Source: Minisyncoccota bacterium
Lineage (GTDB): Bacteria; Patescibacteriota; Minisyncoccia; Phycocordibacterales; UBA6065
Assembly (NCBI GenBank): GCA_035546035.1
Contig: DASZXC010000008.1
Coordinates: 123,951 to 187,950, forward strand
Length of the DNA stretch: 64,000 nt
Reading direction: 5' to 3'
Position numbers and translations under genes: made by a program. Below the pieces are notes generated by a model. It searched no databases. It was not told the origin of the DNA and worked only from the letters and a program-made list of their open reading frames with translations. Positions 864-57,872 of this stretch are shown here, piece after piece; position 1 is the first letter of the stretch; each line of letters opens with the position of its first letter.

Positions 864-2192
864 ATGAAAAAAATAAGAAGCACTTTTGCCCTTCGAGGGG
901 GGCTTATCATCGCGATACTGCTCATGCCGCAAGCCGCTGCTTTCGGCGCCACCGCGATCCCGAAGGGGACCGCCACGTTACCGGTGCCCGCTTCCTGCGA
1001 TCTCGTGCTGAACGGGGTCAAGGCGCGCATTGCGCCCATAGGCGAAGTTCCTGTCGCAGGCGGGGATCTGGACCTCTCTGTCACTCTTTCGAACGAGAAC
1101 GCCTATCCGGTAAGGGGCATGGATGTCGTCGCACGCATCTCGAAGCTCGCTCAGAAGGCCGGCGACGCATATGCGATGGCTACCGATACCGTCGCCCGCA
1201 TCGATCTGGCCAAAGGAGTCTCTCTTTCGACCGGCGAATCCCGAGAGATCGCCCTTGCGTGGCATATGCCGGCAAATCTCGTAGCAGGGCCGTATCGCGT
1301 CGATATCTTCGCTAATTCAGGCGATTCGGCCGTAGGGGGGAACGAATATCTCGGCGTGCCGGCAGGAAGCTATCCGGTCCGCATCGCAGGCGGAACAAAG
1401 GAAGTCTCGTTCCTGAAGCCTTCTTCGGTCGCCGTCAACGGAGCCAAGCCGTTCGCCAATCTTGTCGCCGACGTAAGATCGGCCTCGAATGCCGTGTCTG
1501 TCGTGGCCCAGAGCACTCATTCAAAGGCGGTATCGGCGACGATGCGCTGGAGGGTCTATAGCTCTTATTTCGCGGACGAGGCCGCTCTCGTAACGACGAA
1601 ATCGGAGGCGGTGACTATCCCTGCGGGTGGAACGCAGGCTGTATCCTATTCGTTCAGCGGAGCGGAGAAGGGAACCTATCTCGTCGTCGGCGAGCTCGTC
1701 GACCAATCGAAGGTCTCGCGCGTAGCCGTGCGATTGAACAGGACAGACAAGCCTGAACCGGTCGTTCGATCGCTCGTGCTCTCTGATTTTCCCCTCTCGT
1801 CGTCGGGCGCAACTCCCGTATTCGGCTGCATCGCCGACAGCTCTAACGGAAATCTCCCTGCGACCGCGGTAAAAGTGACTCTTACCGATGCGAAAGGCTC
1901 CGTCGTATATTCAGGCGCTTTCCACAAGACCCCATCGAATCCCTTCCTTCAGTTCATCGGCAATATACTTCCGAATATAAAAGCCGAGAATCCTCTTACG
2001 CTCGCCCTTACCGCGTATGCCGCGGACGGAAGCGTCATCGCCGCGAAATCGGTCGTCTATTCATGCGATGACGGCTCTTGCGACCAGAGCTCAGGAGAGG
2101 ATACGGCCACATACGCCGGCATCGTCGCGCTCGCTCTCCTCGCGATCGCCGCGCTTCTGGTCTGGGAAAAGAAGCACAGGAAACAACTCTAA
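864..2192 (+). CDS. Hypothetical cell-surface protein with N-terminal signal peptide and C-terminal TM anchor plus basic tail
   Basis: ORF 846..2192. Likely start is the internal Met at 864 (MKKIRSTFALRGGLIIAILLMPQAAAFGA). C-terminus YAGIVALALLAIAALLVWEKKHRKQL is a hydrophobic helix plus basic tail. No LPXTG motif seen. Confidence 0.55.
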   Translation: MKKIRSTFALRGGLIIAILLMPQAAAFGATAIPKGTATLPVPASCDLVLNGVKARIAPIGEVPVAGGDLDLSVTLSNENAYPVRGMDVVARISKLAQKAGDAYAMATDTVARIDLAKGVSLSTGESREIALAWHMPANLVAGPYRVDIFANSGDSAVGGNEYLGVPAGSYPVRIAGGTKEVSFLKPSSVAVNGAKPFANLVADVRSASNAVSVVAQSTHSKAVSATMRWRVYSSYFADEAALVTTKSEAVTIPAGGTQAVSYSFSGAEKGTYLVVGELVDQSKVSRVAVRLNRTDKPEPVVRSLVLSDFPLSSSGATPVFGCIADSSNGNLPATAVKVTLTDAKGSVVYSGAFHKTPSNPFLQFIGNILPNIKAENPLTLALTAYAADGSVIAAKSVVYSCDDGSCDQSSGEDTATYAGIVALALLAIAALLVWEKKHRKQL

Positions 2193-2193
2193 T

Positions 2194-3465
2194 ATGAAAC
2201 ATATGAAGAACCTGTTGAAATACGTTTCGGTCGCAGCAGCGGTGCTCGTCTTGGCGCTGATCGTCGTGCCGCATGCGGCTTCGGCTCAGTGGTACTACGG
2301 CTTTGGAGGCTATAGCTTTAACCCTAATACGGACGCGCTCTACATAGACGGCGTTCGCGTCGAGTTCTGGCCTCCTAATGAGGGCGGAGACAATGGAGGA
2401 GGAGGTGGTTCCGTCAGCATGGATACTCAGTGCCCTGACGGCTCTACGGTCCCGGAGGGACAGCAGTGCCCTCCGACCACAAAGGTATGTCAGGACGGCA
2501 GCGTCGTCGCCATAAACGATTCGTGTCCTCCGCTCACCAAACAATGCCCTGACGGCAGCACGGTTGATATCTCTGCCCAATGCCCTCCGACGACGAAACA
2601 ATGCCCTGACGGCAGCGTCGTGGCCATAAATGCCCAATGCGCGCCGAATACATGCCAGGACCCTTCGGCATCGAACTATGGCGGAAGCCTTCCGTGCGAC
2701 TATCCTCCGGCTCTCTGCACGGATCCGTCCGCTTCTAACTACGGCAATTCGCTTCCATGCCAATATGTGCCGATTCAGTATTGCAACGACCCAGCGGCTC
2801 TAAACTATGGCCAGCCGGGAGATTGTGACTATCCTCCTGCAGTGACTATATGCCAGGACCCTTCGGCATCGAACTATGGCGGAAGCCTTCCGTGCGACTA
2901 TCCGCCGATATGCTCTGATCCGTCCGCTTTGAACTATGGCCAGGAAGGCTCGTGCTCGTATCCTCCGCAGAATGTATGCGAGGATCCGAATGCCAACAAT
3001 TACGGCCAGGTCGGCGGATGCACATATGGCGGCGGGGGAAACAATGGCGACAATAATAACGCCCAAACAGGCTTCACCATCTCCGGTCCGAACAGCGTGA
3101 GCGCCACGTTCATCGGAACCCAGTCGGGCGAATCCCAGGTCGCTTCAGTCACGGTGAATCCGGTCGGTGGGTTCGACTCCGATGTCGCCGTTGGAGTGAG
3201 TTCGACCTCGTGCCCGAACGTTTCCGGCTATTCGTTCGACGGCGGTCCGTATACGTCGTCACCGGCGACGGTCATGCGACAGAATCCTAGCGGATGGTAT
3301 GCAGCTCCTTCAGGCAATCTCTATCTCGCGGTGAGGGTCGGTTTCTCGAGTCCTATCCCGTCTCCGTGTCAGGTGACGATCGCCGCTTCGGGCGGCGGCA
3401 AGAGCGCGGATTTCACCATGACCGTCCATCCTGATTCCAAGAATCCTCAATTCCAGGAATTCTAG
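2194..3465 (+). CDS. Secreted Cys-rich tandem-repeat protein with C-terminal -FQEF
   Basis: Start ATG 2194 (MKHMKNLLKYVSVAAAVLVLALIVVPHAASA = signal peptide), in frame inside track ORF 2017..3465. About 19-aa repeats CPDGSTV...QCPPTTK occur 4 times, and about 21-aa repeats C.DPSASNYG.SLPCDYPP occur about 6 times. Ends ...KNPQFQEF-stop. Confidence 0.7.
   Translation: MKHMKNLLKYVSVAAAVLVLALIVVPHAASAQWYYGFGGYSFNPNTDALYIDGVRVEFWPPNEGGDNGGGGGSVSMDTQCPDGSTVPEGQQCPPTTKVCQDGSVVAINDSCPPLTKQCPDGSTVDISAQCPPTTKQCPDGSVVAINAQCAPNTCQDPSASNYGGSLPCDYPPALCTDPSASNYGNSLPCQYVPIQYCNDPAALNYGQPGDCDYPPAVTICQDPSASNYGGSLPCDYPPICSDPSALNYGQEGSCSYPPQNVCEDPNANNYGQVGGCTYGGGGNNGDNNNAQTGFTISGPNSVSATFIGTQSGESQVASVTVNPVGGFDSDVAVGVSSTSCPNVSGYSFDGGPYTSSPATVMRQNPSGWYAAPSGNLYLAVRVGFSSPIPSPCQVTIAASGGGKSADFTMTVHPDSKNPQFQEF
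2652..2903 (+). repeat. Exact 54-nt direct repeat (copies 2652-2705 and 2850-2903) inside the Cys-rich repeat gene
   Basis: atgccaggacccttcggcatcgaactatggcggaagccttccgtgcgactatcc occurs identically twice, 198 nt apart. It encodes the CQDPSASNYGGSLPCDYP unit. Other repeat units are diverged. Confidence 0.8.
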
Positions 3466-3477
3466 GCGCTTCGCGGT

Positions 3478-4839
3478 ATGGACTTCGTCTTCATACTTCA
3501 CGCTATAGCCAACGCATTCGCGTCGGGAAGAAGCGTGATCAAAGTCGTGCTCCTTGCCGTCGCTGTTCTTATCGCTATCGGCGCGCGGCTTTACTATCGG
3601 AGAAGAGAGGGCGAAAAAGGCGCGGCTGCAGGGATACCGGAGAGGATATTTTTCTGGGCCTTGGGCGCATCATTCCTCCTGGGAGCCGTCGTCACATGGT
3701 ATGCGTATGTGACGTTCGGTGCCGGACCGGACCGGGTCATCGTCGCGATCGCCGAGCGCGACATCTCGACGACGCAGCCTTTTCATAGCCATGTGATGAA
3801 GGCGGCCTTTGGTGCGATCGCCGGCCTTGTTCCGGAGCATACGAGGCTCGCATGGGAGAATTCGGCTGATTTCGGCTATGCATACGCAAAGACATTGCCG
3901 CCGTGGATCGGCTTCGCGGGCTTCGCTGATTGCGCCGCGCTCGTCTCTCTGGCGATATGGCTCTTTGTCCGCTTCGCGGCGAGAGAGCGCAGGCTTTCCC
4001 TCGTCATCCTCTTTGCCGTCGCTCTGGTATCCGCGCTAAAGAACGTATTTGACGGAGGGGCGACGAACCACGAAGCGATTCCGGCGACCATCGTCTTGGG
4101 GCTCCTCGTTTTTGGGACGCGGCCCAAGAAGGCTCTGCTCGGGCTCGCGATCTTGCCTCTAGGCTTCGCGCTCGCAGGGGTCTGCTTTTCAGGCATGCCT
4201 TTGGGCGGAGCAGCGGAATATCTCCGTCATGCATTCGGATTAATGCTCATATATATATGCTGGTTCGCTCTTTCGGAGGATCGTGTTCCCAAGGTCCCCG
4301 CTATCATCGGGCTCATTGCCGGGGTGTTGTCTCTCGCGTCTCTCTTCGGTCTCGGCGCGCGCGACGCGCAATATGCCGCGACGCCGATATCGTATATCCA
4401 GACGTTCATCGGCACCTACGGCGACACCGAGCTCGGACAGTCGTACGAGAGGATCGGGTCTCTTTCTATACGCTCGTTCGCGACCACTTCTTCTCTTACG
4501 ATCGGCGGCTTGGCGTCCCTGATTGGAGAGGGTACTGCCTATAGCCCTATCTCTATCCGTACGAAGAGCTGCGAGTTCAAGAATGCGACGGCGCGTGTCT
4601 CGCTTGAAGCCGTCTCACGCTTCGACCTTGCCAAGCCGGCGGTTGTCCACAAGCTCGCGCGTATAGACAGCCTTATCTTTCGAGGAGAGAGCGATGGGTG
4701 GAAGCGATATGACGCCGATGTTTCCTTTTCAGAATGCGTCCCTCGTTCATTGACCGTCATCGCAGAGCTTTTTCATGAAGCGGGGGCGCCGTATCTTATC
4801 CTCCTGCCGCGATTAGGCGAGTCAGGCATGCCTTACTGA
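3478..4839 (+). CDS. Polytopic integral membrane protein (about 8-9 TM N-terminal region plus ~150-aa C-terminal soluble domain), function unknown
   Basis: 453-aa ORF with many hydrophobic helices, starting 13 nt after the preceding gene and ending 3 nt before the next. No family recognised by eye. A GT-C-like glycosyltransferase or exosortase-like role is speculative. Confidence 0.6.
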   Translation: MDFVFILHAIANAFASGRSVIKVVLLAVAVLIAIGARLYYRRREGEKGAAAGIPERIFFWALGASFLLGAVVTWYAYVTFGAGPDRVIVAIAERDISTTQPFHSHVMKAAFGAIAGLVPEHTRLAWENSADFGYAYAKTLPPWIGFAGFADCAALVSLAIWLFVRFAARERRLSLVILFAVALVSALKNVFDGGATNHEAIPATIVLGLLVFGTRPKKALLGLAILPLGFALAGVCFSGMPLGGAAEYLRHAFGLMLIYICWFALSEDRVPKVPAIIGLIAGVLSLASLFGLGARDAQYAATPISYIQTFIGTYGDTELGQSYERIGSLSIRSFATTSSLTIGGLASLIGEGTAYSPISIRTKSCEFKNATARVSLEAVSRFDLAKPAVVHKLARIDSLIFRGESDGWKRYDADVSFSECVPRSLTVIAELFHEAGAPYLILLPRLGESGMPY

Positions 4840-4842
4840 TCT

Positions 4843-5334
4843 ATGGATACTCTCTTCAAAGAGGCAGAGACTCTCATAATTCTTGCAGGAGCCGTGAATA
4901 TCGCTCTCAATATACTCGGCGCGCTTAAGCGCCGCTTCGGTCTGGAGAGATTCGACGCACCATTCGATTTCCGGATCGCCATCGGCGGGAGGAGGCTTTT
5001 GGGCGCGTCGACGACTTGGATCGGATTCATCCTCTGTGCTCTTTCGGGGGCGCTTATGTCCGTTTGGGGCATAGCATACGGCTATGTCATAGCATTCGGG
5101 GTCTTTTTTGGGCATGCTCTGGGCAGTTTCATAAAGCGAAGGATGGGCGTAGCTGACGGGGGTCCGCTTCCTCTGGTAGATCGTGCCAATTTCGTCGTCC
5201 TATCGGGAGCCGCGCTTCTCTTTATGGGCTCGATGCGCCCTGTCGCATATGTCGCGGCGGTCATCCTTGCCTATTTCATTCATCCTGTATTCTGTAAACT
5301 GGGTGTCATGCTCGGTATCAGGGTGGTACAATAG
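4843..5334 (+). CDS. Small membrane protein with divergent CdsA/CarS/dolichol-kinase-like (CTP-transferase superfamily) motif
   Basis: 163 aa, about 5 TM. Segment GHALGSFIKRRMGVADGGPLPLVDRANFVV resembles the S-x-F-K-R-x4-(K)D-...-DR signature of the CdsA/CarS family but lacks the HGG triplet. Size is similar to archaeal CDP-archaeol synthase. Assignment is tentative. Confidence 0.45.
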   Translation: MDTLFKEAETLIILAGAVNIALNILGALKRRFGLERFDAPFDFRIAIGGRRLLGASTTWIGFILCALSGALMSVWGIAYGYVIAFGVFFGHALGSFIKRRMGVADGGPLPLVDRANFVVLSGAALLFMGSMRPVAYVAAVILAYFIHPVFCKLGVMLGIRVVQ

Positions 5335-5342
5335 GGCCAGTC

Positions 5343-6566
5343 ATGAAAAATAGATTCGCGGCAATATTTTTCGCTCTCGCGGCGGTCATCTTCGCCTTTC
5401 CTTCCGTCTCTTCGGCCGGTTCCGCTCATAATATGTCAGGCTTCGCCTGGTCGTCGACCATAGGTTGGATCAGTTTCAACTGTACCAATGACAGCAGCTG
5501 TGCGACCGCTGACTATGGCGTGAATAAAGACGCTGACGGCACTCTCAACGGCTATGCGTGGTCTTCGAACGTCGGCTGGATACAGTTCAGCGGCCTTTCG
5601 AGCTTTCCGACGGGCGGCGGCACTTCGGCGGTAAATGCCCAAATGTCCGGATCGAGCCTTATCGGCTGGGTCAAAGCCGTCGCGGCTGACGGCAATGGCT
5701 GGGACGGATGGATAGCGCTCTCCGGCACGGGCTACGGCGTGACTCTTTCAGGCACGGCATTCACCGGCTATGCATGGGGAAGCGATACGGTCGGCTGGAT
5801 AAGCTGGAATTGCCTCTCTGACAGTTCCTGCGGAGCGGCGAGCTATGCCGTCAGCCTCTCCGGCGACGCGTCTCTCGACATAACGAGCGGCGGCTCGACC
5901 ATCGTCGGGTCGAGTTCGGTCCCCTACGGCACTATCCCGACATTCCAGTGGACCCTCACGACTCTTCCGGTCGGGACGACATGCGCGGTCTCCAAAACCT
6001 CTTCCGGAGGCACGGCATTCACGACTATAAGCGGCATAACGTCTTCGGGTTCCGCATCGGGAGACCCTCTGACCGAAGGCCCGTACACGTTCCAGATACA
6101 ATGCATGAACGGCGGTTCGACGCTCGTTACCAAGACGGCGAGTTTCACCGTCGCCTCCCAGCCGCCCGGCTTCGATCTAGGCCCGTCCGAAACCGCTTTC
6201 ATCCAATTCCTCAACGCAGGAGAGGCGACATCCCAGCAGAAGAGCATATTCGTGAGCGCATTCGGCGGTTTTTCGAATCCGGTCACCATATCGATCACTG
6301 GATTCCCGGCCGCCCCGGCTTCGACGACCTTCTCGTATTCGCTCGGCGGCAGCGCTTTTTCCGCCAATCCGCCGAGCGTCGTCATCAGTAGCCCGTATTC
6401 ATCGGGTACGACGCTCAAGATCCGCGTGACGAGGGTCTCCGGCGCCCCGGCATTCACCGGAAATTTCACGGTGACGCTCACAGGCACGGCCGCGGGAGCG
6501 TCGGCTGATACCAAAGATATCGTCCTCACGCCGACGACCTTCGTCCCGGCATTCCAAGAATTCTAA
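5343..6566 (+). CDS. Secreted Trp-rich repeat protein with C-terminal -FQEF
   Basis: Signal peptide MKNRFAAIFFALAAVIFAFPSVSSA. Repeated motif G(Y/F)AW(S/G)S..GWI(S/Q)(F/W)(N/S)C occurs 3-4 times, followed by a Thr/Ser/Gly-rich region. Ends ...FVPAFQEF-stop, the same last four residues as the 2194..3465 gene. Confidence 0.7.
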   Translation: MKNRFAAIFFALAAVIFAFPSVSSAGSAHNMSGFAWSSTIGWISFNCTNDSSCATADYGVNKDADGTLNGYAWSSNVGWIQFSGLSSFPTGGGTSAVNAQMSGSSLIGWVKAVAADGNGWDGWIALSGTGYGVTLSGTAFTGYAWGSDTVGWISWNCLSDSSCGAASYAVSLSGDASLDITSGGSTIVGSSSVPYGTIPTFQWTLTTLPVGTTCAVSKTSSGGTAFTTISGITSSGSASGDPLTEGPYTFQIQCMNGGSTLVTKTASFTVASQPPGFDLGPSETAFIQFLNAGEATSQQKSIFVSAFGGFSNPVTISITGFPAAPASTTFSYSLGGSAFSANPPSVVISSPYSSGTTLKIRVTRVSGAPAFTGNFTVTLTGTAAGASADTKDIVLTPTTFVPAFQEF

Positions 6567-6582
6567 GCCTAAGAATAAAATC

Positions 6583-6831
6583 ATGAGCAAAACAACGAAA
6601 GTGATCATTCCAATCCTTCTCCTTACCGTCGTGGCGGGCCTTGTCGCGCTTATGATGCGGGCACATAATAAAGGCATGGAGGATACTCCCGAATACCGCG
6701 CGCAGGTCATCGATACGCTTACCGCATCATCGAACCCAAAGCCTGACCAGAAAGTCATCGATTCTCTTTCCGCTCCCGCCGCTCCATCGAAAGAAGAAGG
6801 AGACATATTAAAAACATTACAAGCGCAATAA
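6583..6831 (+). CDS. Small single-pass membrane protein, hypothetical
   Basis: 82-aa ORF. N-terminal VIIPILLLTVVAGLVALMM hydrophobic helix. Tightly spaced in the surface-protein block. Confidence 0.4.
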   Translation: MSKTTKVIIPILLLTVVAGLVALMMRAHNKGMEDTPEYRAQVIDTLTASSNPKPDQKVIDSLSAPAAPSKEEGDILKTLQAQ

Positions 6832-6837
6832 AAATCC

Positions 6838-8394
6838 ATGAGCCGAAAGATCTTTAAGACGTTCGTCATAGCTCTCGCCGCAGTCCTGCCTCTTTCCGCC
6901 TCTGCGCAGTGGTCAGGGCCGGGAGCGACCCCGCCTTCAGGCAATGCTGCTCCGCCTCTCAATACGTCCTCGACCGCGCAATCGAAAGCAGGCGGACTCC
7001 TCTTGAATACCGGCAACGCGACGAACGGCCTCATCGTTCAATATGGAAACGTCGGCGTGGGCGCTACGTCTCCGGGAGCGAAGCTTCATGTGCTCGGCGG
7101 CGGCGCCATTCTGGGCACCACGGGGTCGGCCGCTAGTTCAAGGACCCTCACCATCCTCGATAACGCTGACGGCCAGATAAACTTCGGCTCGTATTCCGGC
7201 CAATGGAGGTCGTCTATCCAGATCCAGTCGAACGACGCGGCGCGCCTCCTCTTTATCGCTCCTCCTGAATCGGACTACGGATACGGCATCCTCCGCGCGG
7301 CGAACGGCGGACTTAAAATAGACGTCGGCGGCACGACGGGGGACAGCGGCAGCAATGCGATCTCGATCGAATCGAACGCCAAGGTCGGCATCGGCATGAC
7401 GCCGTCGGTCAAGCTCGACGTGAACGGCGAGATACAGACGAACGACTGGCTCTACAACTCGACGTCAGCCAAAGGCCTCTACAATACCAGCACGGGCAAG
7501 CATTTCTATTCGGAATCCGCGAGCTATTGGGCGCTGAACTCTACCAACGGCCTTGTCCTTCGGAACGGCTACGCGGGAACGGTTACGGGCTACCTCTATT
7601 GGGACGGAACGGCCGGTTCGAACAACTTCGGCCTCCTTTCGCCGAACGGCTCCTGGAAAGTGCGAACGGATAATTCCACGACCCAGCTCTACGGCAACGT
7701 GTACATGCCCTTCTTCTATGACACTGACAACTCGGCCTATTATGTCGACCCTCATAGCGTGTCGCGATTCAATGATATCCGTCCGAACATCATCTATGAC
7801 GGCAACGACACGAACTATTATCTCGATATGAACGGCTCGTCGAAGATCGGGTATACGCTCTTCCCGGGCGGTGCGAACATGCAGTCGACGCTCTATATAA
7901 CGGGCGGCGCTCTGTGGGCGCAGGGAGGAGTGACGACATACCTCGACGGATATGTCTGGGTCCGAGGCCCGGCATACGGAGGGCAGGGCGATGTCCAGAT
8001 CGACGGCGACCTCTCGCTCGGCGCTCATGTAGCGAGCGGAGGAGGAGGAACGATACATCTCTATGGCGACGGCTACTATTGGGGCTCGTGGAACAACATG
8101 TCGGACCAGAGGCTCAAGAAGAATATCGTGCCTATCGCCGATCCTATCGAGAAGATCGAAAAATTGAACGGCGTCGCATTCGATTGGAAGGATTCGGGCA
8201 AACATTCCGTCGGCGTCATCGCGCAGGACGTCGAGAAAGTATTTCCGGAGCTCGTATCCACCGATGACAAGACGGGATACAAGGCGGTCCAATATCAGAA
8301 CCTCGTCGCTCCTCTCATAGAAGCCGTAAAGGCTCAGCAGAAGGAGATCGAGGCGCTCAAGGCGGAAGTCGAAGCCCTCAAGAAAGACAGATAA
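6838..8394 (+). CDS. Secreted fibre-like protein with C-terminal intramolecular chaperone/auto-processing domain (Peptidase S74, endosialidase-chaperone type)
   Basis: Signal peptide MSRKIFKTFVIALAAVLPLSASA, followed by a long Gly/Thr/Asn/Ser-rich region. C-terminus SDQRLKKNIVPIADPIEKIEKLNGVAFDWKDSGKHSVGVIAQDVEKVFPELVSTDDKTGYKAVQYQNLVAPLIEAVKAQQKEIEALKAEVEALKK matches the S-D-x-R-L-K ... IAQE(V).PE.V ... LI.A.K coiled-coil pattern of phage tail-spike chaperone domains. Confidence 0.7.
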   Translation: MSRKIFKTFVIALAAVLPLSASAQWSGPGATPPSGNAAPPLNTSSTAQSKAGGLLLNTGNATNGLIVQYGNVGVGATSPGAKLHVLGGGAILGTTGSAASSRTLTILDNADGQINFGSYSGQWRSSIQIQSNDAARLLFIAPPESDYGYGILRAANGGLKIDVGGTTGDSGSNAISIESNAKVGIGMTPSVKLDVNGEIQTNDWLYNSTSAKGLYNTSTGKHFYSESASYWALNSTNGLVLRNGYAGTVTGYLYWDGTAGSNNFGLLSPNGSWKVRTDNSTTQLYGNVYMPFFYDTDNSAYYVDPHSVSRFNDIRPNIIYDGNDTNYYLDMNGSSKIGYTLFPGGANMQSTLYITGGALWAQGGVTTYLDGYVWVRGPAYGGQGDVQIDGDLSLGAHVASGGGGTIHLYGDGYYWGSWNNMSDQRLKKNIVPIADPIEKIEKLNGVAFDWKDSGKHSVGVIAQDVEKVFPELVSTDDKTGYKAVQYQNLVAPLIEAVKAQQKEIEALKAEVEALKKDR

Positions 8395-8408: not shown

Positions 8409-9206
8409 ATGATCAAACACATGAAAATCATATATCGAGCATCGTCTGCCGCCGCTGCGCTCCTTGCCGCCGCTTCGGTCCATGCTCAAGCGATCCCTCA
8501 GCAGACCGTAACGCCGCCTCCGCCCCCTCCGAACATCGTAGCCCCGACGCCGGCGACCCCTGCGATCGGAGCAGGTTCTTCGGCGAGCGTCGTCTCTGAG
8601 ACGGCGCCTGCCGCCAATACGGCGGCTTCTTCGGGAGGTACCGCGTTGGCGGCTCCCGGCAACGCTTCGGCATCGGGCGAAGCTCCTGTCGGAAACGTCA
8701 CGGCAAAGCCGACGGCTGATCCTTTGTCGAGCCTTAACGCTCCCGGCGCTTCGACGGCAGGAAAGACGAATACGCCCGTCACGGCTCCCGTGAAAAGCAC
8801 GACAAGCGCTGCTACGGGCGCCATCTCTTCGCTCCTTCCGGTCGATGCGGCGAACCAGCTCTCGTCGAATGCAAATATCGTGTCTGATAAGCTTCGTGGC
8901 GCCATCGATAAGCTCGTCGCGGCCCGCGACAAGATCGTCGTGAGGAACGAGGCAGTGAAGGCGCGCGCGGCAGCCGGCACGGCTTCTGAGGCCGACGCTA
9001 AACTCGCAATGGCGGACGCCAAGCTCGCCCTCGCGCGTGCGGCGGTAACGGCGATCGCTGCTTCGATATCAGGCAGATCGACGGTCGAATCGGCGGCGAC
9101 GGCTCTCGAGTCGGCTGATGAAATCGCCCGCACGTCCATTCGCGCCGCGCAGGGCGCTTTGAAAGCCGCCCTTACAGTTCTTCAGGCCGCCGAGGCGAAT
9201 AAATAA
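8409..9206 (+). CDS. Secreted Ala/Pro/Thr-rich low-complexity protein, hypothetical
   Basis: Signal peptide (..AAALLAAASVHAQA), a PPPPPP stretch, and an Ala-rich helical C-terminal region. No catalytic motif. Confidence 0.5.
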   Translation: MIKHMKIIYRASSAAAALLAAASVHAQAIPQQTVTPPPPPPNIVAPTPATPAIGAGSSASVVSETAPAANTAASSGGTALAAPGNASASGEAPVGNVTAKPTADPLSSLNAPGASTAGKTNTPVTAPVKSTTSAATGAISSLLPVDAANQLSSNANIVSDKLRGAIDKLVAARDKIVVRNEAVKARAAAGTASEADAKLAMADAKLALARAAVTAIAASISGRSTVESAATALESADEIARTSIRAAQGALKAALTVLQAAEANK

Positions 9207-9212
9207 ACGCAT

Positions 9213-9500
9213 ATGAACCCACAAGAAAATTCAAGCAACCGCGCATACTGGATGATCCTCGCTGGCGTCGCTCTCCTCGCTGCTTTGGGCCTCGTCGCGT
9301 TCTATCTCTATCTCCAGAAAGAGGCCGCTCAGACGCCCGTTGACCAGACTCCCGTCACGACGGTTCCTGTGAATAGCGGCTCGCAGCAGAATGCGGCGTC
9401 ATCGGGCTCTCAAAGCGGGGCCACGACTGCAGAGCAGGATCTTTCGGGGGACGTGCTTTCAGGCACTGAATACAATCTCCGCGCTGGTTTGAGCCAATAA
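9213..9500 (+). CDS. Small membrane protein, hypothetical
   Basis: 95 aa. TM helix YWMILAGVALLAALGLVAFYLYL. Rest is Ser/Gln-rich. Confidence 0.4.
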   Translation: MNPQENSSNRAYWMILAGVALLAALGLVAFYLYLQKEAAQTPVDQTPVTTVPVNSGSQQNAASSGSQSGATTAEQDLSGDVLSGTEYNLRAGLSQ

Positions 9501-9705
9501 TGGCCGATTGACGCCCTTTGTCAGGCGAGGGATAATTTTCTTAGTATGAACCCTCTAGACCATCCTGTGATAGCGGGGTTTGCAGTCATCGTCGCGACCG
9601 GCCTGTGGCTCGTCTTGCTCAAGGCAAGGCAGGCTCCCAAAGGCATCGAAGACGAGCAGGGGTTCCATTATGCCGAAAAATAGCCCCATACCCCGAAGCG
9701 TTGCG

Positions 9706-9731
9706 AGAGCGGCCTTAAAGGCCGCTCTTTT
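9706..9731 (+). terminator. Intrinsic terminator hairpin before the pilus operon
   Basis: agagcggcc-ttaa-ggccgctct followed by TTTT. Confidence 0.55.
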
Positions 9732-9735
9732 CCGT

Positions 9736-9766
9736 TTAGCCGTCTGCGCCCGTCTTGCGGTATAAT
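9736..9766 (+). promoter_or_regulatory. Putative sigma70-type promoter of the type IV pilus operon
   Basis: TATAAT at 9761-9766 with TTAGCC about 19 nt upstream. Lies 18 nt before the pilB ATG at 9785. Confidence 0.4.
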
Positions 9767-9784
9767 AGATACACCGCTCTCTCT

Positions 9785-11536
9785 ATGTACATCGAAGAAT
9801 CCCAGCTCAAGCAATTCATCGCTGATTCGGGCCTCGTCTCGAAGAAAGACATGACCGATGCTCAGACAGAAGCCAAAGCCAAGAAGACGGGTCTCGGAGA
9901 GATCCTCGTCAACCACGGAAAGATATCCGAAGACGATCTCCGCAAGATGCAGGCATACATCCTTGGCATCCCGTTCGTGGATCTCAAGGGCCAGAAAATA
10001 GATTTCGCCATCCTCTCTCTCATTCCCGAGCCGATCGCGCGAAACCATAATATCGTCGCGTTCAAGAAAGACCCTTCGGCTCTCGAGGTTGCCATGCTCG
10101 ACACCGACGACCTTTCGGCCATCGATTTCATAAAGAAGAAGACCGGCCTCAAGATCCTCTCGCGCCTCACCGATACCGAATCCATAAAATCGGTCCTTCT
10201 CCAATATCAGAAGAGCCTTAAGGCCGAATTCGGCGATCTCATAAAAAACGAGACCGCGACTCTGAAAGCGCTCTCCGAGGAGATCGGTTCGAAAGGGAAG
10301 AGCGGCGACGACCTGAAGAAGATGGCCGAGGACCTGCCGGTCATCCGCATCGTGGATACGCTCTTAAAGCATGCCATCATCCAGGGCGCATCCGATATAC
10401 ATATCGAGCCTCTGGAAAAAGAGCTTTTGGTCCGCTACCGCATAGACGGCCTCCTCCACGACGCTATGGTCCTGCCGAAAGAAGCCGAGATGTCCATCAC
10501 GGCGCGCATCAAGGTGCTCTCGAACCTCAAGCTCGACGAGAAGCGCCTTCCGCAGGACGGACGATTCAAAGTAGAGATGAACGGCGAGAAAGTCTCGCTC
10601 CGCGTCTCTATCATGCCGACGTTCTATGGCGAAAAGACGGTGATGCGCCTGCTCCGTGAATCGGTTTCCGGATTCACGCTCGAGCATCTCGGTTTCCACG
10701 GCCCTGCGCTTGAACGGATCCACGATGCGACGCGATTGGCGACGGGCATGATCCTGGCTACAGGCCCTACGGGTTCGGGCAAATCGACGACGCTCTATAC
10801 GGTCCTCGATATCCTGAACCAGCCCGACGTGAATATCGCGACGGTCGAAGATCCTGTCGAATATCAGATGCCGCGCGTGAACCAGACCCAGGTCCGCCCC
10901 GACATCGGATTCACGTTCGCGTCGGGCCTCCGATCCCTTGTCCGCCAGGATCCGGACATCATCATGGTAGGCGAGATCCGCGACAACGAGACGGCGTCCC
11001 TTGCCGTGAACGCGGCTCTTACGGGTCACCTCGTGCTTTCGACCCTTCATACCAATTCCGCCGCGGGCTCCATGCCGCGCCTCATGGATATGAAGATCGA
11101 GCCGTTCCTGCTCGCTTCAACGCTTGCCGTCGTCATCGGCCAGCGCCTCGTGCGGCGCCTCGCGGACAATAAAGACCTCAAGCCTTTGACTAAGGCCGAG
11201 CTCGGCGCATTGGGCAAGGTCGTGGATCTTGACCGCATGCTCGCGCTTCTCCGCGACGAGAAGATCATCGGTCCGAAGGACGATTGGGCTAAGGTCATGT
11301 TCGGCTCCCCTCGCGCCGAAGGCGACAATGACGGATACAAGGGCCGCGTCGGCATCCATGAAGTGCTCAAGATGACGCCGACGATCAGGGAGCTGATCAT
11401 GAAAGGAGCGACGTCCGCCGAGATCGAGGCGCAGGCCAAGAAAGAGGGAATGATCACCATGCTCGAAGACGGCATATTCTCCGCCGCTCAGGGCCTGACG
11501 ACGATCGAAGAGGTTCTCCGCGTGGTTTCCGAATAG
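9785..11536 (+). CDS. pilB: Type IV pilus assembly ATPase PilB (GspE family)
   Basis: Walker A GPTGSGKST, ..VEDPVEYQ.., and the tetracysteine-less GspE core are recognisable. Start taken at internal Met (MYIEES) of track ORF 9755..11536, just downstream of the promoter. Confidence 0.9.
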   Translation: MYIEESQLKQFIADSGLVSKKDMTDAQTEAKAKKTGLGEILVNHGKISEDDLRKMQAYILGIPFVDLKGQKIDFAILSLIPEPIARNHNIVAFKKDPSALEVAMLDTDDLSAIDFIKKKTGLKILSRLTDTESIKSVLLQYQKSLKAEFGDLIKNETATLKALSEEIGSKGKSGDDLKKMAEDLPVIRIVDTLLKHAIIQGASDIHIEPLEKELLVRYRIDGLLHDAMVLPKEAEMSITARIKVLSNLKLDEKRLPQDGRFKVEMNGEKVSLRVSIMPTFYGEKTVMRLLRESVSGFTLEHLGFHGPALERIHDATRLATGMILATGPTGSGKSTTLYTVLDILNQPDVNIATVEDPVEYQMPRVNQTQVRPDIGFTFASGLRSLVRQDPDIIMVGEIRDNETASLAVNAALTGHLVLSTLHTNSAAGSMPRLMDMKIEPFLLASTLAVVIGQRLVRRLADNKDLKPLTKAELGALGKVVDLDRMLALLRDEKIIGPKDDWAKVMFGSPRAEGDNDGYKGRVGIHEVLKMTPTIRELIMKGATSAEIEAQAKKEGMITMLEDGIFSAAQGLTTIEEVLRVVSE

Positions 11537-54414: not shown

Positions 54415-54419
54415 ATTTG

Positions 54420-54819
54420 TGGAGATGCCGAGAGTCGAACTCGGGTGCAGAAAGATGTTCCAGTTGCTTCTACGCGACCTAGCGGTCTTTTGCCAGTGAG
54501 GCTTTAAGCGGGCGCACTATAAAGATTCGCGAAACGTGCGGACGCCGATCTTCGCGGGCCGAAGCCCTTCGATAAGGAGCGAAGAGTCTCCGTATCTATC
54601 CTGGATCTATAACACCGGGTCCTGCCGCGCCAGGAATGCGAGCGGGCCGATGTCGTTTAGGCGGGGCTTATTAAGCAGCCGCGTAAGCGAATGAAAACGT
54701 GTTCGTCGCGAAAGGCGATTTTACAGATTTTGCATTTGATGGGCGGAAAGTTTAGAGAGGTATCCTGCTCTATCGCGCGCAAAGGGAAGCTGTCCCTCTG
54801 TCTATGCCTGTCATCCCCA
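54420..54819 (-). ncRNA. ssrA: tmRNA (SsrA)
   Basis: Minus-strand 5' end GGGGAUGACAGGCAU... pairs with 3' end ...GGUUCGACUCUCGGCAUCUCC-A (T-arm-like GUUCGA, 7-bp acceptor stem with G3:U70). Immediately downstream of smpB. Internal frame GCG ACG AAC ACG UUU UCA UUC GCU UAC GCG GCU GCU UAA UAA (about 54669-54710) is a candidate tag ORF. Confidence 0.8.
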
Positions 54820-57796: not shown

Positions 57797-57872
57797 GCGC
57801 CTATAGCTCAGTTGGTTAGAGCATCGAGCTTATACCTCGAGGGTCCTTGGTTCGAATCCAAGTAGGCGCACC
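57797..57872 (+). tRNA. tRNA-Ile with anticodon UAU (reads AUA)
   Basis: Manual fold of gcgccta-ta-gctc-agttggtta-gagc-a-tcgag-ctTATac-ctcga-gggtc-cttgg-ttcgaat-ccaag-taggcgc-a-cc. All four stems pair (acceptor 7 bp). T-loop TTCGAAT. Anticodon loop c-t-TAT-a-c. CCA not encoded. Confidence 0.8.

What the first reader, a model, noticed from the sequence alone, without database searches (positions are those of the whole stretch)
6838..8394. Secreted fibre protein carrying a phage tail-spike-type C-terminal intramolecular chaperone (Peptidase S74) domain
Seen in sequence: the last ~100 residues read SDQRLKKNIVPIADPIEKIEKLNGVAFDWKDSG-KHSVGVIAQDVEKVFPELVSTDDKTGYKAVQYQNLVAPLIEAVKAQQKEIEALKAEVEALKK. 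This contains the S-D-x-R-L-K autocleavage site, the IAQ(E/D)V...PE(L)V core and the terminal coiled coil. Together these are characteristic of the endosialidase/tail-fibre intramolecular chaperone that trimerises, folds a beta-helical fibre and then cleaves itself off at the Ser (established knowledge for phage K1F/phi29/T5 fibres and some bacterial adhesins). The ~400 residues upstream are Gly/Thr/Asn/Ser-rich with Y/W, consistent with a beta-helix or triple-beta-helix fibre, and the protein has a Sec signal peptide. There is no flanking phage gene, so this looks like a cell-encoded surface fibre or adhesin that may have been co-opted from phage, placed next to other surface proteins and the pilus operon.
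Basis: partly seen in the sequence, partly recalled or inferred. Interest (0 to 1): 0.5.

Follow-up and report, generated by a model that had tools for sequence, protein, structure and literature searches.

The report
Secreted self-cleaving fibre of a Patescibacterium
An ultrasmall (Patescibacteria/CPR) bacterium encodes an exported fibre protein that ends in the self-cleaving folding domain of phage tail fibres, an ordinary example of a known protein type that is a reasonable candidate for how these cells grip a host.

Summary
ORF 6838-8394 (+) encodes 518 aa. A Sec-type signal (ASA|QW) is followed by a Gly/Ser/Asn/Thr/Tyr-rich shaft. The C-terminus is a Peptidase_S74 intramolecular-chaperone domain (PF13884, E 1.1e-17, 64.5 bits against a cutoff of 22) with S422-D-Q-R-L-K427 and a terminal helix. 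The Ser and Lys are invariant in 15 aligned relatives. The modelled domain matches the MyRF and K1F chaperone structures.

The identical protein is already in NCBI as [quoted passage not shown]. No neighbouring gene is phage-like.

The closest characterised relatives are the Bdellovibrio S74-type "MAT" fibres. The family profile matches the Bd2133 and Bd3182 beta-helix crystal structures, including the VGxGTxxPxxKL capping loops.

- The N-terminal ~64 aa form a module found almost only in Patescibacteria. It heads many proteins with or without S74, sometimes in tandem arrays.
- In 27 of 55 loci the fibre gene lies within 1.5 kb, on the same strand, of a "GWISFN" three-beta-sandwich, adhesin-like gene. 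A small membrane protein with SLTAP-like repeats often lies between them.
- Linkage to the type IV pilus operon is looser (9 of 55).

Function as a surface adhesin is inferred, not shown. This is a new member of a known kind.

The parts
6838..8394 (+). Whole fibre gene, 518 aa plus stop. It is identical to an NCBI protein named 'tail fiber domain-containing protein [Candidatus Paceibacterota bacterium]', found on a 380 kb contig.
6838..6906 (+). Predicted Sec signal peptide, aa 1-23, MSRKIFKTFVIALAAVLPLSASA, with cleavage before Q24-W25. The position of the conserved Trp right after the hydrophobic segment is shared across the family.
   Evidence: Reading of the sequence; alignments. No signal-peptide predictor was run.
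6907..7098 (+). Lineage-specific N-terminal module, aa 24-87 (QWxGPxxxPPxGNxxxPLNxSxTAQxKxGGLxLNTGxAxNGLIVQxGNVGVGxTxPxAKLHV). The first ~30 aa were found only in Patescibacteria. The last ~35 aa are one copy of a very widespread beta-helix repeat.
7048..7089 (+). Capping-loop motif 1, aa 71-84, NVGVGATSPGAKLH. It aligns to RVGVGTTAPTSALH of Bd3182 (8ojn), apparently the R656-H669 capping loop named in PMC10769870 (that residue numbering was inferred, not shown by a tool).
7381..7419 (+). Capping-loop motif 2, aa 182-194, KVGIGMTPSVKLD.
7711..7848 (+). Two copies of a ~25 aa 'YDxxNxxYYxDPxxxS' repeat, aa 292-337. This region lies within the only shaft stretch (about aa 242-350) that has a phage match, to Synechococcus phage DSL-LC03 at 39% identity.
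7849..8100 (+). Distal shaft or tip, aa 338-421. This would be the new C-terminal end after self-cleavage and is the probable ligand-binding end.
   Evidence: Inference from the K1F, T5 and Bd3182 precedents. Conserved in P0002, P0003 and P0006. Model confidence is low.
8101..8391 (+). Peptidase_S74 intramolecular chaperone domain, aa 422-518. It has S422 and K427 in SDQRLK, the IAQDVEKVFPELV core at 461-473, and a helix at 486-517. The predicted scissile bond is M421|S422 (nt 8098-8103), releasing a 10.8 kDa fragment from a 41.6 kDa shaft.
5343..6566 (+). Linked partner gene: a secreted 407 aa protein with an N-terminal 'GWISFN'-repeat domain and two further beta-sandwich domains. It ends in PAFQEF. 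The model is confident and resembles chains of Ig-like adhesin domains.
6583..6831 (+). Linked small gene: an 82 aa protein with one N-terminal membrane helix and three SLTAP-like repeats (VIDTLTAS, VIDSLSAP, DILKTLQAQ).
8409..9206 (+). Downstream 265 aa Ala/Pro/Thr-rich protein with a signal-peptide-like N-terminus. It is conserved next to the fibre in L001 and, inverted, in L004.
9213..9500 (+). Downstream 95 aa single-pass membrane protein with a conserved C-terminal motif AEQDLSxDVLxGT. It is conserved in L001 and L004.

Best explanation
This is a chromosomal gene of a Patescibacteria (Candidatus Paceibacterota) cell. It encodes an exported homotrimeric fibre of the phage-tail-fibre / Bdellovibrio MAT type.

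Proposed sequence of events:
1. The precursor is exported by Sec and its signal peptide is removed at ASA|QW. This is inferred from the sequence.
2. Three C-terminal S74 domains (aa 422-518) associate through their terminal helices and nucleate folding of the preceding beta-helical shaft. This is inferred from family membership.
3. Each chain then cuts itself at M421|S422 using the S422/K427 dyad. A 10.8 kDa chaperone fragment is shed and the tip of a 3 x 41.6 kDa fibre is exposed. The motif is shown; the cleavage is inferred.
4. The fibre stays on the cell through its lineage-specific N-terminal module. The likely partners are the co-encoded GWISFN adhesin-like protein and/or the small SLTAP-repeat membrane protein. 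This step is speculative.
5. The distal end binds a surface structure of a partner or host cell, or a substrate, aiding the attached lifestyle typical of cultivated Patescibacteria. This is inferred by analogy with Bdellovibrio MAT fibres and phage receptor-binding proteins.
For: - S74 domain: Pfam E 1.1e-17. S422 and K427 are invariant. SDxxxK is present in 114 of 120 S74-bearing hits. The domain is modelled at pLDDT ~90 and matches MyRF ICA 7dc3 (E 2e-5, probability 1.0) and K1F 3gw6 (probability 0.80-0.98 across six chains). S16 gp37 (6f45) aligns across the cleavage site.
- Shaft: the family profile matches the solved trimeric beta-helices Bd2133 8ond (E 4e-16 over ~176 profile positions), Bd3182 8ojn (1.3e-8), Bd1334 and Bd2439. 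Bd3182 is an experimentally shown self-cleaving, surface-located S74 fibre (PMC10769870).
- Cellular rather than phage: the N-terminus looks like a signal peptide. No neighbour matches a phage family above threshold. Synteny is conserved in related chromosomes. The N-module was not found in IMG/VR and is almost confined to Patescibacteria genomes.
- Surface cassette: 28 of 29 GWISFN-type genes in 719 kb of loci lie within 1.5 kb of an N-module gene, all on the same strand. About 9 would be expected by chance. The partner protein models confidently as three beta-sandwich domains resembling Gram-positive and fimbrial adhesins.
Against: - No experiment or expression data exist for this protein.
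- The shaft could not be modelled as a monomer (pLDDT below 55), and no trimer prediction was possible.
- No anchoring motif is present (no LPXTG, no lipobox, no Cys), so surface retention is assumed.
- No ligand-binding or enzymatic domain is recognisable in aa 24-421.
- The organism is known only as a metagenome-assembled genome. Its lifestyle and any host are unknown.
Confidence: 0.7

Rival explanations
1. It is a leftover phage or tailocin tail-fibre gene from a degraded prophage, with no cellular role.
For: The C-terminal ~100 aa hit 36 PHROG families, nearly all annotated tail fibre or baseplate among the 25 shown, and phage S16 gp37. One cyanophage matches aa ~242-350.
Against: - No phage gene was found among the nine nearest unknown-function genes scanned against PHROGs, nor by Pfam across the 20 genes spanning 320-22,638.
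- A signal-peptide-like N-terminus is not expected on a virion fibre, which assembles in the cytoplasm.
- The gene and its neighbours are syntenic in relatives whose fibres share about 80%, 52% and 55% local identity with this one.
- The N-terminal module is absent from 2.9 million viral contigs, at the sensitivity of one search pattern.
- The reading frame is intact and the dyad is conserved.
Confidence: 0.05
2. It is an accessory or tip adhesin of the type IV pilus encoded immediately downstream.
For: It lies on the same strand, about 1.4 kb upstream of pilB. A PilB gene lies within 10 kb in 9 of 55 N-module loci, more than a single-copy locus in a ~1 Mb genome would give by chance. PMC10769870 raises possible interplay between MAT fibres and type IV pili.
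Against: - There is no prepilin-type (G|F/M) leader. The N-terminus looks like an ordinary Sec signal.
- In L004 the same cassette sits directly next to TIM and PGK with no pilus operon.
- In the window, a 45 aa ORF lies between the fibre block and pilB. It has its own promoter-like site and an 11 bp terminator hairpin, followed by a TATAAT before the pilB ATG at 9786. This suggests separate transcripts.
Confidence: 0.1
3. It is a secreted tailspike-like enzyme, such as a polysaccharide depolymerase, rather than an adhesin.
For: S74 was first described on endosialidases. Beta-helical shafts often carry glycan-cleaving clefts (PMC10769870).
Against: - No glycosidase or lyase family is detected in aa 24-421.
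- The shaft is short and made of fibre-type repeats homologous to non-enzymatic MAT shafts.
Confidence: 0.1

Closest known systems
Bdellovibrio bacteriovorus MAT (mosaic adhesive trimer) fibres, S74 subgroup, e.g. Bd3182 (PDB 8ONC, 8OJN, 8ONB; Caulton et al. 2024, PMC10769870)
   Same: Both are cell-encoded with a signal peptide, a trimeric beta-helix shaft with VGxGTxxPxxxL capping loops, and a C-terminal S74 domain with SDxxxK. In both cases the family has S74 and non-S74 members that share an N-terminus but differ in their tips. Both belong to bacteria that live on other bacteria. Profile matches: Bd2133 E 4e-16 and Bd3182 E 1.3e-8.
   Different: This protein is about half the size (518 aa against roughly 1,000). 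The N-terminal module is a ~64 aa Patescibacteria-specific sequence. The Bdellovibrionales and other non-Patescibacteria hits instead begin with a different post-signal domain, and they match only the internal repeat. This cell probably has no outer membrane. The gene is linked to a GWISFN protein and an SLTAP-repeat membrane protein, which are not described for MATs.
Phage tail-fibre and tailspike C-terminal intramolecular chaperone domains (K1F endosialidase 3GW6, T5 pb1 4UW8, S16 gp37 6F45)
   Same: The S74 fold, the Ser-Lys dyad in S-D-x-x-x-K, and the terminal helix. It sits at the C-terminus of a fibre.
   Different: This protein is exported through a signal peptide and encoded among cellular genes. 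The shaft and N-terminus are not those of any phage in the collections searched, apart from one 39% match over ~110 aa.
Myelin regulatory factor (MyRF) ICA domain (7DC3)
   Same: It is the best structural match to the modelled C-terminal domain (E 2e-5, TM 0.65 over the target). It is another non-viral user of S74 with an upstream beta-helical stalk.
   Different: MyRF is a eukaryotic membrane-bound transcription factor. Its cleavage releases a DNA-binding domain, not a fibre.

Membership tests
Peptidase S74 / C-terminal intramolecular chaperone domain (Pfam PF13884) | Match to the family HMM above the curated threshold | tested here: met
   64.5 bits against a cutoff of 22, E 1.1e-17, aa 422-473
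Peptidase S74 / C-terminal intramolecular chaperone domain (Pfam PF13884) | Catalytic Ser and Lys in the S-D-x-x-x-K motif | tested here: met
   S422 and K427 in SDQRLK. Both are invariant in 15 relatives. The motif is present in 114 of 120 S74-bearing hits.
Peptidase S74 / C-terminal intramolecular chaperone domain (Pfam PF13884) | Fold of the solved chaperone domains, ending in a long helix | tested here: met
   pLDDT ~90 for aa 422-518, with a helix at 486-517. Foldseek gives 7dc3 at probability 1.0 and 3gw6 at probability 0.80-0.98 across six chains.
Peptidase S74 / C-terminal intramolecular chaperone domain (Pfam PF13884) | Located at the C-terminus of a trimeric beta-helical fibre or spike | tested here: inconclusive
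   The position is C-terminal. The shaft profile is homologous to the solved trimeric beta-helices of Bd2133 and Bd3182. However, the monomer model of the shaft is unreliable and no trimer model could be made.
Peptidase S74 / C-terminal intramolecular chaperone domain (Pfam PF13884) | Autoproteolytic release of the domain after trimerisation | not testable with these tools
   This needs protein expression and S422A / K427A mutants.
Bdellovibrio MAT fibre family | Signal peptide | tested here: met
   MSRKIFKTFVIALAAVLPLSASA|QW, by reading the sequence. The family alignment shows the same layout.
Bdellovibrio MAT fibre family | Conserved ~130 aa beta-rich N-terminal domain directly after the signal peptide | tested here: inconclusive
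   This protein starts with a different, ~64 aa module whose first ~30 aa occur almost only in Patescibacteria. Bdellovibrionales and other non-Patescibacteria proteins match only the internal repeat, and the four with complete N-termini show a different N-terminal domain. The HD100 MAT N-domain sequence itself was not available for comparison.
Bdellovibrio MAT fibre family | Beta-helix shaft with capping loops (consensus V-G-G/N-pi-x-x-P-x-x-x-L) | tested here: met
   aa 71-84 NVGVGATSPGAKLH and aa 182-194 KVGIGMTPSVKLD. The profile hits 8ond, 8ojn, 8oml and 8ol4. The motif is described in PMC10769870.
Bdellovibrio MAT fibre family | Surface display and a role in recognising another cell | not testable with these tools
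   This needs localisation and binding experiments.
Phage virion tail fibre | Encoded in a phage or prophage structural module and assembled in the cytoplasm | tested here: not met
   No phage genes were found nearby. The chromosomal context is syntenic in relatives. The N-terminus looks like a signal peptide.

The most novel reading that the evidence does not exclude
The fibre is one component of a Patescibacteria-wide host-recognition kit that has not been described. In this reading, fibres share a lineage-specific N-terminal docking module and carry interchangeable tips. Some tips are matured by S74, most are not, and the genes are sometimes in tandem arrays of up to six. The fibres would be displayed together with a co-encoded GWISFN three-domain adhesin and a small SLTAP-repeat membrane tether, often near type IV pilus genes. 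The kit would set which host cell an ultrasmall episymbiont can attach to, as receptor-binding proteins do for phages and MAT fibres do for Bdellovibrio.
Probability: 0.25. Interest if true: 0.7.

Novelty: new member of a known kind. Interest (0 to 1): 0.4.

Why it matters
How Patescibacteria/CPR cells find and hold their hosts is described as largely unknown (PMC12206443, abstract). Type IV pili and unnamed adhesins are the only leads so far (PMC10633639 and PMC11665869). Neither of those two papers, nor the Minisyncoccus description (PMC12281837), mentions S74 or tail-fibre-like proteins. Three full-text searches pairing these organisms with such proteins returned nothing relevant.

A phage-type, self-maturing trimeric fibre with variable tips, tied to a conserved adhesin-like partner, gives concrete candidate genes for host specificity. 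The S422A cleavage test and binding assays with the mature trimer are simple experiments. As a protein type, however, it is not surprising. S74 domains are common in bacteria, the gene is already auto-annotated as a tail-fibre-domain protein, and the Bdellovibrio precedent was published in 2024.

Tried and rejected
- The AlphaFold2 monomer of the whole fibre gave a confident model only for the S74 domain. The shaft (pLDDT 40-55) is unusable, so no fold claim for the shaft rests on it. A trimer could not be submitted.
- NCBIfam gave no hit.
- The exhaustive representative search with the N-module profile was swamped by the internal repeat (profile positions ~31-70). That repeat occurs 20-70 times in giant proteins, and 133,128 clusters scored E <= 1e-3. 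The search shows the repeat is widespread but gives no size for the N-module family.
- The IMG/VR scan for the N-module found nothing. It used a single degenerate pattern, so this negative is weak.
- Literature searches pairing Patescibacteria/CPR/Parcubacteria with S74, endosialidase or tail fibre found nothing relevant. The three Patescibacteria papers checked do not mention such proteins.
- The prophage-remnant and pilus-subunit readings were considered and down-weighted (see rival explanations).
- Foldseek of the GWISFN partner gave only generic Ig-like adhesin matches with low TM-scores. No specific family can be assigned to its N-terminal domain.
- Rfam found no RNA element near the locus.
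Full report
**1. The observation**

ORF 6838..8394 (+) is real and encodes 518 aa. SDQRLK is aa 422-427 (nt 8101-8118), IAQDVEKVFPELV is aa 461-473, and a predicted helix runs from aa 486 to 517.

- Pfam PF13884 (Peptidase_S74, 'chaperone of endosialidase') matches aa 422-473 at E 1.1e-17 and 64.5 bits, against a curated cutoff of 22.
- PHROGs returns 36 families, nearly all annotated tail fibre or baseplate among the 25 shown, mostly through aa ~415-517.
- By sequence against the PDB, the distal long-tail-fibre subunit of phage S16 (6f45) aligns across the cleavage site at E 2.7e-9. With a family profile this improves to 3.4e-16.
- In an alignment of 15 relatives, S422 and K427 are invariant. 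SDxxxK was found in 114 of 120 S74-bearing hits, and at least one of the six misses is an artefact of my motif window.
- The AlphaFold2 model has pLDDT ~90 over aa 422-518. Its best structural matches are the MyRF ICA domain (7dc3, E 2e-5, probability 1.0, TM 0.65 on the target) and the K1F endosialidase chaperone (3gw6, probability 0.80-0.98 across six chains).

The mature shaft (aa 24-421) is G 16%, S 10%, N 8%, T 8% and Y 7%, with no Cys. The N-terminus MSRKIFKTFVIALAAVLPLSASA|QW looks like a Sec signal with an AxA site. No predictor was available, so this is a reading of the sequence.

**2. Source and annotation**

An identical 518 aa protein is in NCBI as 'MAG TPA: tail fiber domain-containing protein [Candidatus Paceibacterota bacterium]' on a 380 kb contig. 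Candidatus Paceibacterota resolves to the phylum Minisyncoccota, i.e. Patescibacteria/CPR. The S74 or tail-fibre nature is therefore already captured by automatic annotation. What is missing is any interpretation.

**3. Context**

All genes from about 320 to 22,600 are on the + strand.

- Upstream are secreted or membrane proteins without Pfam families: a 453 aa multi-pass membrane protein, a CarS-like protein, a 407 aa secreted protein (5343-6566) and an 82 aa single-pass membrane protein (6583-6831).
- Downstream are a 265 aa Ala/Pro/Thr-rich protein with a signal-peptide-like N-terminus and a 95 aa membrane protein. Then come PilB, PilC and four pilin-like genes, followed by TIM, PGK, RecJ, RNase H and ComEC.
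- None of the neighbours hits a phage family above threshold.
- Between the fibre block and pilB lies a 45 aa ORF (9547-9684). It has a promoter-like site and an 11 bp terminator hairpin (9705-9729), followed by a TATAAT and the likely pilB ATG at 9786. On sequence grounds the fibre block and the pilus operon look like separate transcripts.

**4. Relatives and synteny**

The closest relative (80% identity) has the same order: 393-417 aa protein, 94 aa protein, fibre, 259 aa protein, 94 aa protein, PilB, PilC, pilins.

A more distant relative is P0004 (686 aa; 61% identity over the N-module and 52% over the C-terminal ~190 aa). It keeps the whole upstream block (homologues of 846, 2017, 3478, CarS-like and 5343, plus a small protein of similar size and layout in the position of 6583). 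It is followed directly by TIM and PGK with no pilus operon. A Taylorbacteria fibre of only 284 aa again follows a 403 aa homologue of 5343 (59% identity) and a 97 aa small protein.

The constant neighbours are therefore the 400 aa protein and the small membrane protein, not the pilus genes.

**5. Anatomy of the fibre**

Searching with the shaft alone and mapping the hits shows that aa ~23-87 form a module. It is shared at 45-80% identity by about 90 of the collected proteins and always sits at their N-terminus, with or without a C-terminal S74 domain. Its consensus is (A)W-T-x-P-T-x-x-P-P-x-G-N-x-x-A-P-L-N-x-S-x-T-A-Q-x-K-x-G-G-L-x-L-N-T-G-G-A-x-N-G-L-I-V-Q-x-G-N-V-G-I-G-T-T-x-P-x-x-K-L-x-V.

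A profile of this module hits every solved Bdellovibrio MAT fibre:

| Fibre | PDB | E-value |
|---|---|---|
| Bd2133 | 8ond | 7e-15 |
| Bd3182 | 8ojn | 1.6e-6 |
| Bd1334 | 8oml | 2.4e-5 |
| Bd2439 | 8ol4 | 6e-4 |

These hits come only through profile positions ~31-70, which is one beta-helix turn plus the 'capping loop'. The window protein has two such loops, NVGVGATSPGAKLH (aa 71-84) and KVGIGMTPSVKLD (aa 182-194). The first aligns with RVGVGTTAPTSALH of Bd3182, apparently the R656-H669 capping loop described in PMC10769870 (the residue numbering is my inference). The full-length family profile matches about 176 positions of the Bd2133 trimeric beta-helix at E 4e-16. This is the basis for calling the shaft a trimeric beta-helix, because the monomer model of the shaft is unusable.

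The exhaustive search shows the repeat unit is extremely common. It scored E <= 1e-3 in 133,128 clusters and occurs up to ~70 times in giant proteins.

The first ~30 aa of the module are lineage-specific. A scan of 185,579 species genomes found the full module in 55 analysed loci (the scan was limited by one search pattern). All but two, plus a few labelled only 'bacterium', carry Patescibacteria-type labels. The two exceptions are short contigs in a Thermoplasmata bin and a Gammaproteobacteria bin, probably mis-binned. Bdellovibrio, Planctomycetota, Bacteroidales and other hits match only the repeat, and the four of those proteins with complete N-termini begin with a different domain.

No copy was found in IMG/VR. 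Against 50,697 phage genomes the shaft has one match, a cyanophage at 39% identity over aa ~242-350, the region holding the YYxDP repeats.

**6. A conserved cassette**

In the 55 genome loci with an N-module gene there are 74 such genes. These include tandem arrays: L013 has six in a row, none with S74. About 9 of the 55 loci carry an N-module gene that also has S74 (a few of these are short or contig-truncated ORFs with dubious S74 matches). So, as in Bdellovibrio, S74 and non-S74 tips share one N-terminus.

A homologue of the 407 aa protein lies within 1.5 kb on the same strand in 27 of 55 loci. Of 29 such genes in 719 kb, 28 lie in the 30% of sequence that is within 1.5 kb of an N-module gene. 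About 9 would be expected by chance.

That protein has 531 hits. All that carry a name are called hypothetical or Ig-like-domain proteins, nearly all from Patescibacteria-group organisms. They share an N-terminal ~150 aa domain with four G-[YF]-A-W-S-x-x-x-G-W-I-x-F repeats and differ in their C-terminal beta-sandwich domains. Its model is confident (pLDDT 88) and shows three beta-sandwich domains. It resembles chains of Ig-like adhesin domains (PrgB, antigen I/II, CfaE), but only generically.

Between or beside the two genes there is usually an 85-116 aa protein with one N-terminal membrane helix and two or three [VIL][ILM][DN][ST]L[TS]AP repeats. In the window these are VIDTLTAS, VIDSLSAP and DILKTLQAQ. 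PilB lies within 10 kb in 9 of 55 loci. That is more than chance for a small genome but far from constant.

**7. Mechanism**

- Shown: the domain, the dyad, the homology of the shaft to solved trimeric beta-helices, the cellular context and the gene linkage.
- Inferred from the family (K1F, T5, Bd3182; PMC10769870): after export, the three S74 domains trimerise and template the shaft. They then cut at M421|S422 and leave. The result is a 3 x 41.6 kDa fibre with a newly exposed distal end, plus 10.8 kDa fragments.
- Speculative: the N-module holds the fibre on the cell. There is no LPXTG, lipobox, Cys or second membrane segment, so a protein partner is needed. The two co-encoded proteins are the obvious candidates.
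- By analogy: the fibre acts as an adhesin for a host or partner surface.

**8. Rivals**

- A prophage remnant is unlikely, given the signal-peptide-like N-terminus, the synteny, the absence of phage genes and the absence of the N-module from viral contigs.
- A pilus subunit or tip adhesin is unlikely, given the lack of a prepilin leader, the loss of pilus linkage in L004 and the predicted separate transcript.
- A depolymerase cannot be excluded, but nothing supports it.

**9. Comparison and novelty**

The protein works like, and is partly homologous to, the S74 subgroup of Bdellovibrio MAT fibres. It is a clear member of the S74 domain family. It differs from MATs in its N-terminal module, its size and its partner genes, so I do not file it as a MAT family member.

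The held literature has nothing linking Patescibacteria with S74 or tail-fibre-like proteins. The protein type is known and the gene is already annotated, so I rate it a new member of a known kind. The family-level picture (lineage-specific N-module, interchangeable tips, conserved cassette) may be a new variant worth following up.

Noticed in passing
window 5343-6566 and 2017-3465; also L004 3112-4593 and 6520-7719; L006 96-3647, 3785-5074 and 6449-7660: Several otherwise different secreted proteins share a ~130 aa C-terminal beta-sandwich domain. The polypeptide ends exactly in a P-x-F-[QKRE]-E-[FIT] motif (PAFQEF, PQFQEF, PNFKEI, PEFREF and similar). This could be a surface-anchoring or sorting tag specific to these bacteria.
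   Followed up: partly
window 6583-6831; L009 9645-9929; L010 9653-9913; L034 9546-9890; L035 6641-6991; L056 1954-2211 and others: These are small (82-116 aa) single-pass membrane proteins with two or three [VIL][ILM][DN][ST]L[TS]AP repeats separated by Pro/Ser/Thr-rich linkers. They recur next to the fibre and GWISFN genes. No known family matches.
   Followed up: partly
L013 4852-14054: Six N-module fibre paralogues (516, 528, 605, 528, 566 and 262 aa) lie in tandem on one strand of a 301 kb Patescibacteria contig. None has an S74 domain. This looks like a diversified tip repertoire.
   Followed up: no
window 9501-9790: A 45 aa ORF (9547-9684, MNPLDHPVIAGFAVIVATGLWLVLLKARQAPKGIEDEQGFHYAEK) has one hydrophobic helix. 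It is preceded by TTGACG-17-GATAAT and followed by an 11 bp GC-rich hairpin (9705-9729). A TATAAT then comes before the probable true pilB start at ATG 9786, not the TTG at 9755 listed by the ORF finder.
   Followed up: partly
window 4843-5334 with 3478-4839: A CarS-like (CDP-archaeol synthase family, PF01864, E 6e-13) membrane protein sits next to a 453 aa multi-pass membrane protein. Both are syntenic in L004. This is an archaeal-type lipid enzyme family in a bacterial surface-protein cluster.
   Followed up: no
window 2017-3465: The listed ORF overlaps the preceding gene. The real start is probably the ATG at about 2194 (MKHMKNLLKYV..., signal-peptide-like). The protein has Cys-rich CPDGS(T/V)V repeats and eight or so 'DPSASNYGxxLPCxYPP' repeats before the shared C-terminal domain.
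   Followed up: no
window 54417-54818 (-) and 57797-57870 (+): A tmRNA (73 bits) and a tRNA (75 bits) are the only Rfam matches in the window.
   Followed up: no
proteins P0276-P0425: The ~40 aa beta-helix/capping-loop repeat (GGLxLNTGGAxNGLIVQxGNVGIGTTxPxAKLxV) occurs 20-73 times in giant proteins of 1,700-7,900 aa. It scores E <= 1e-3 in 133,128 clusters at 50% identity.
   Followed up: no
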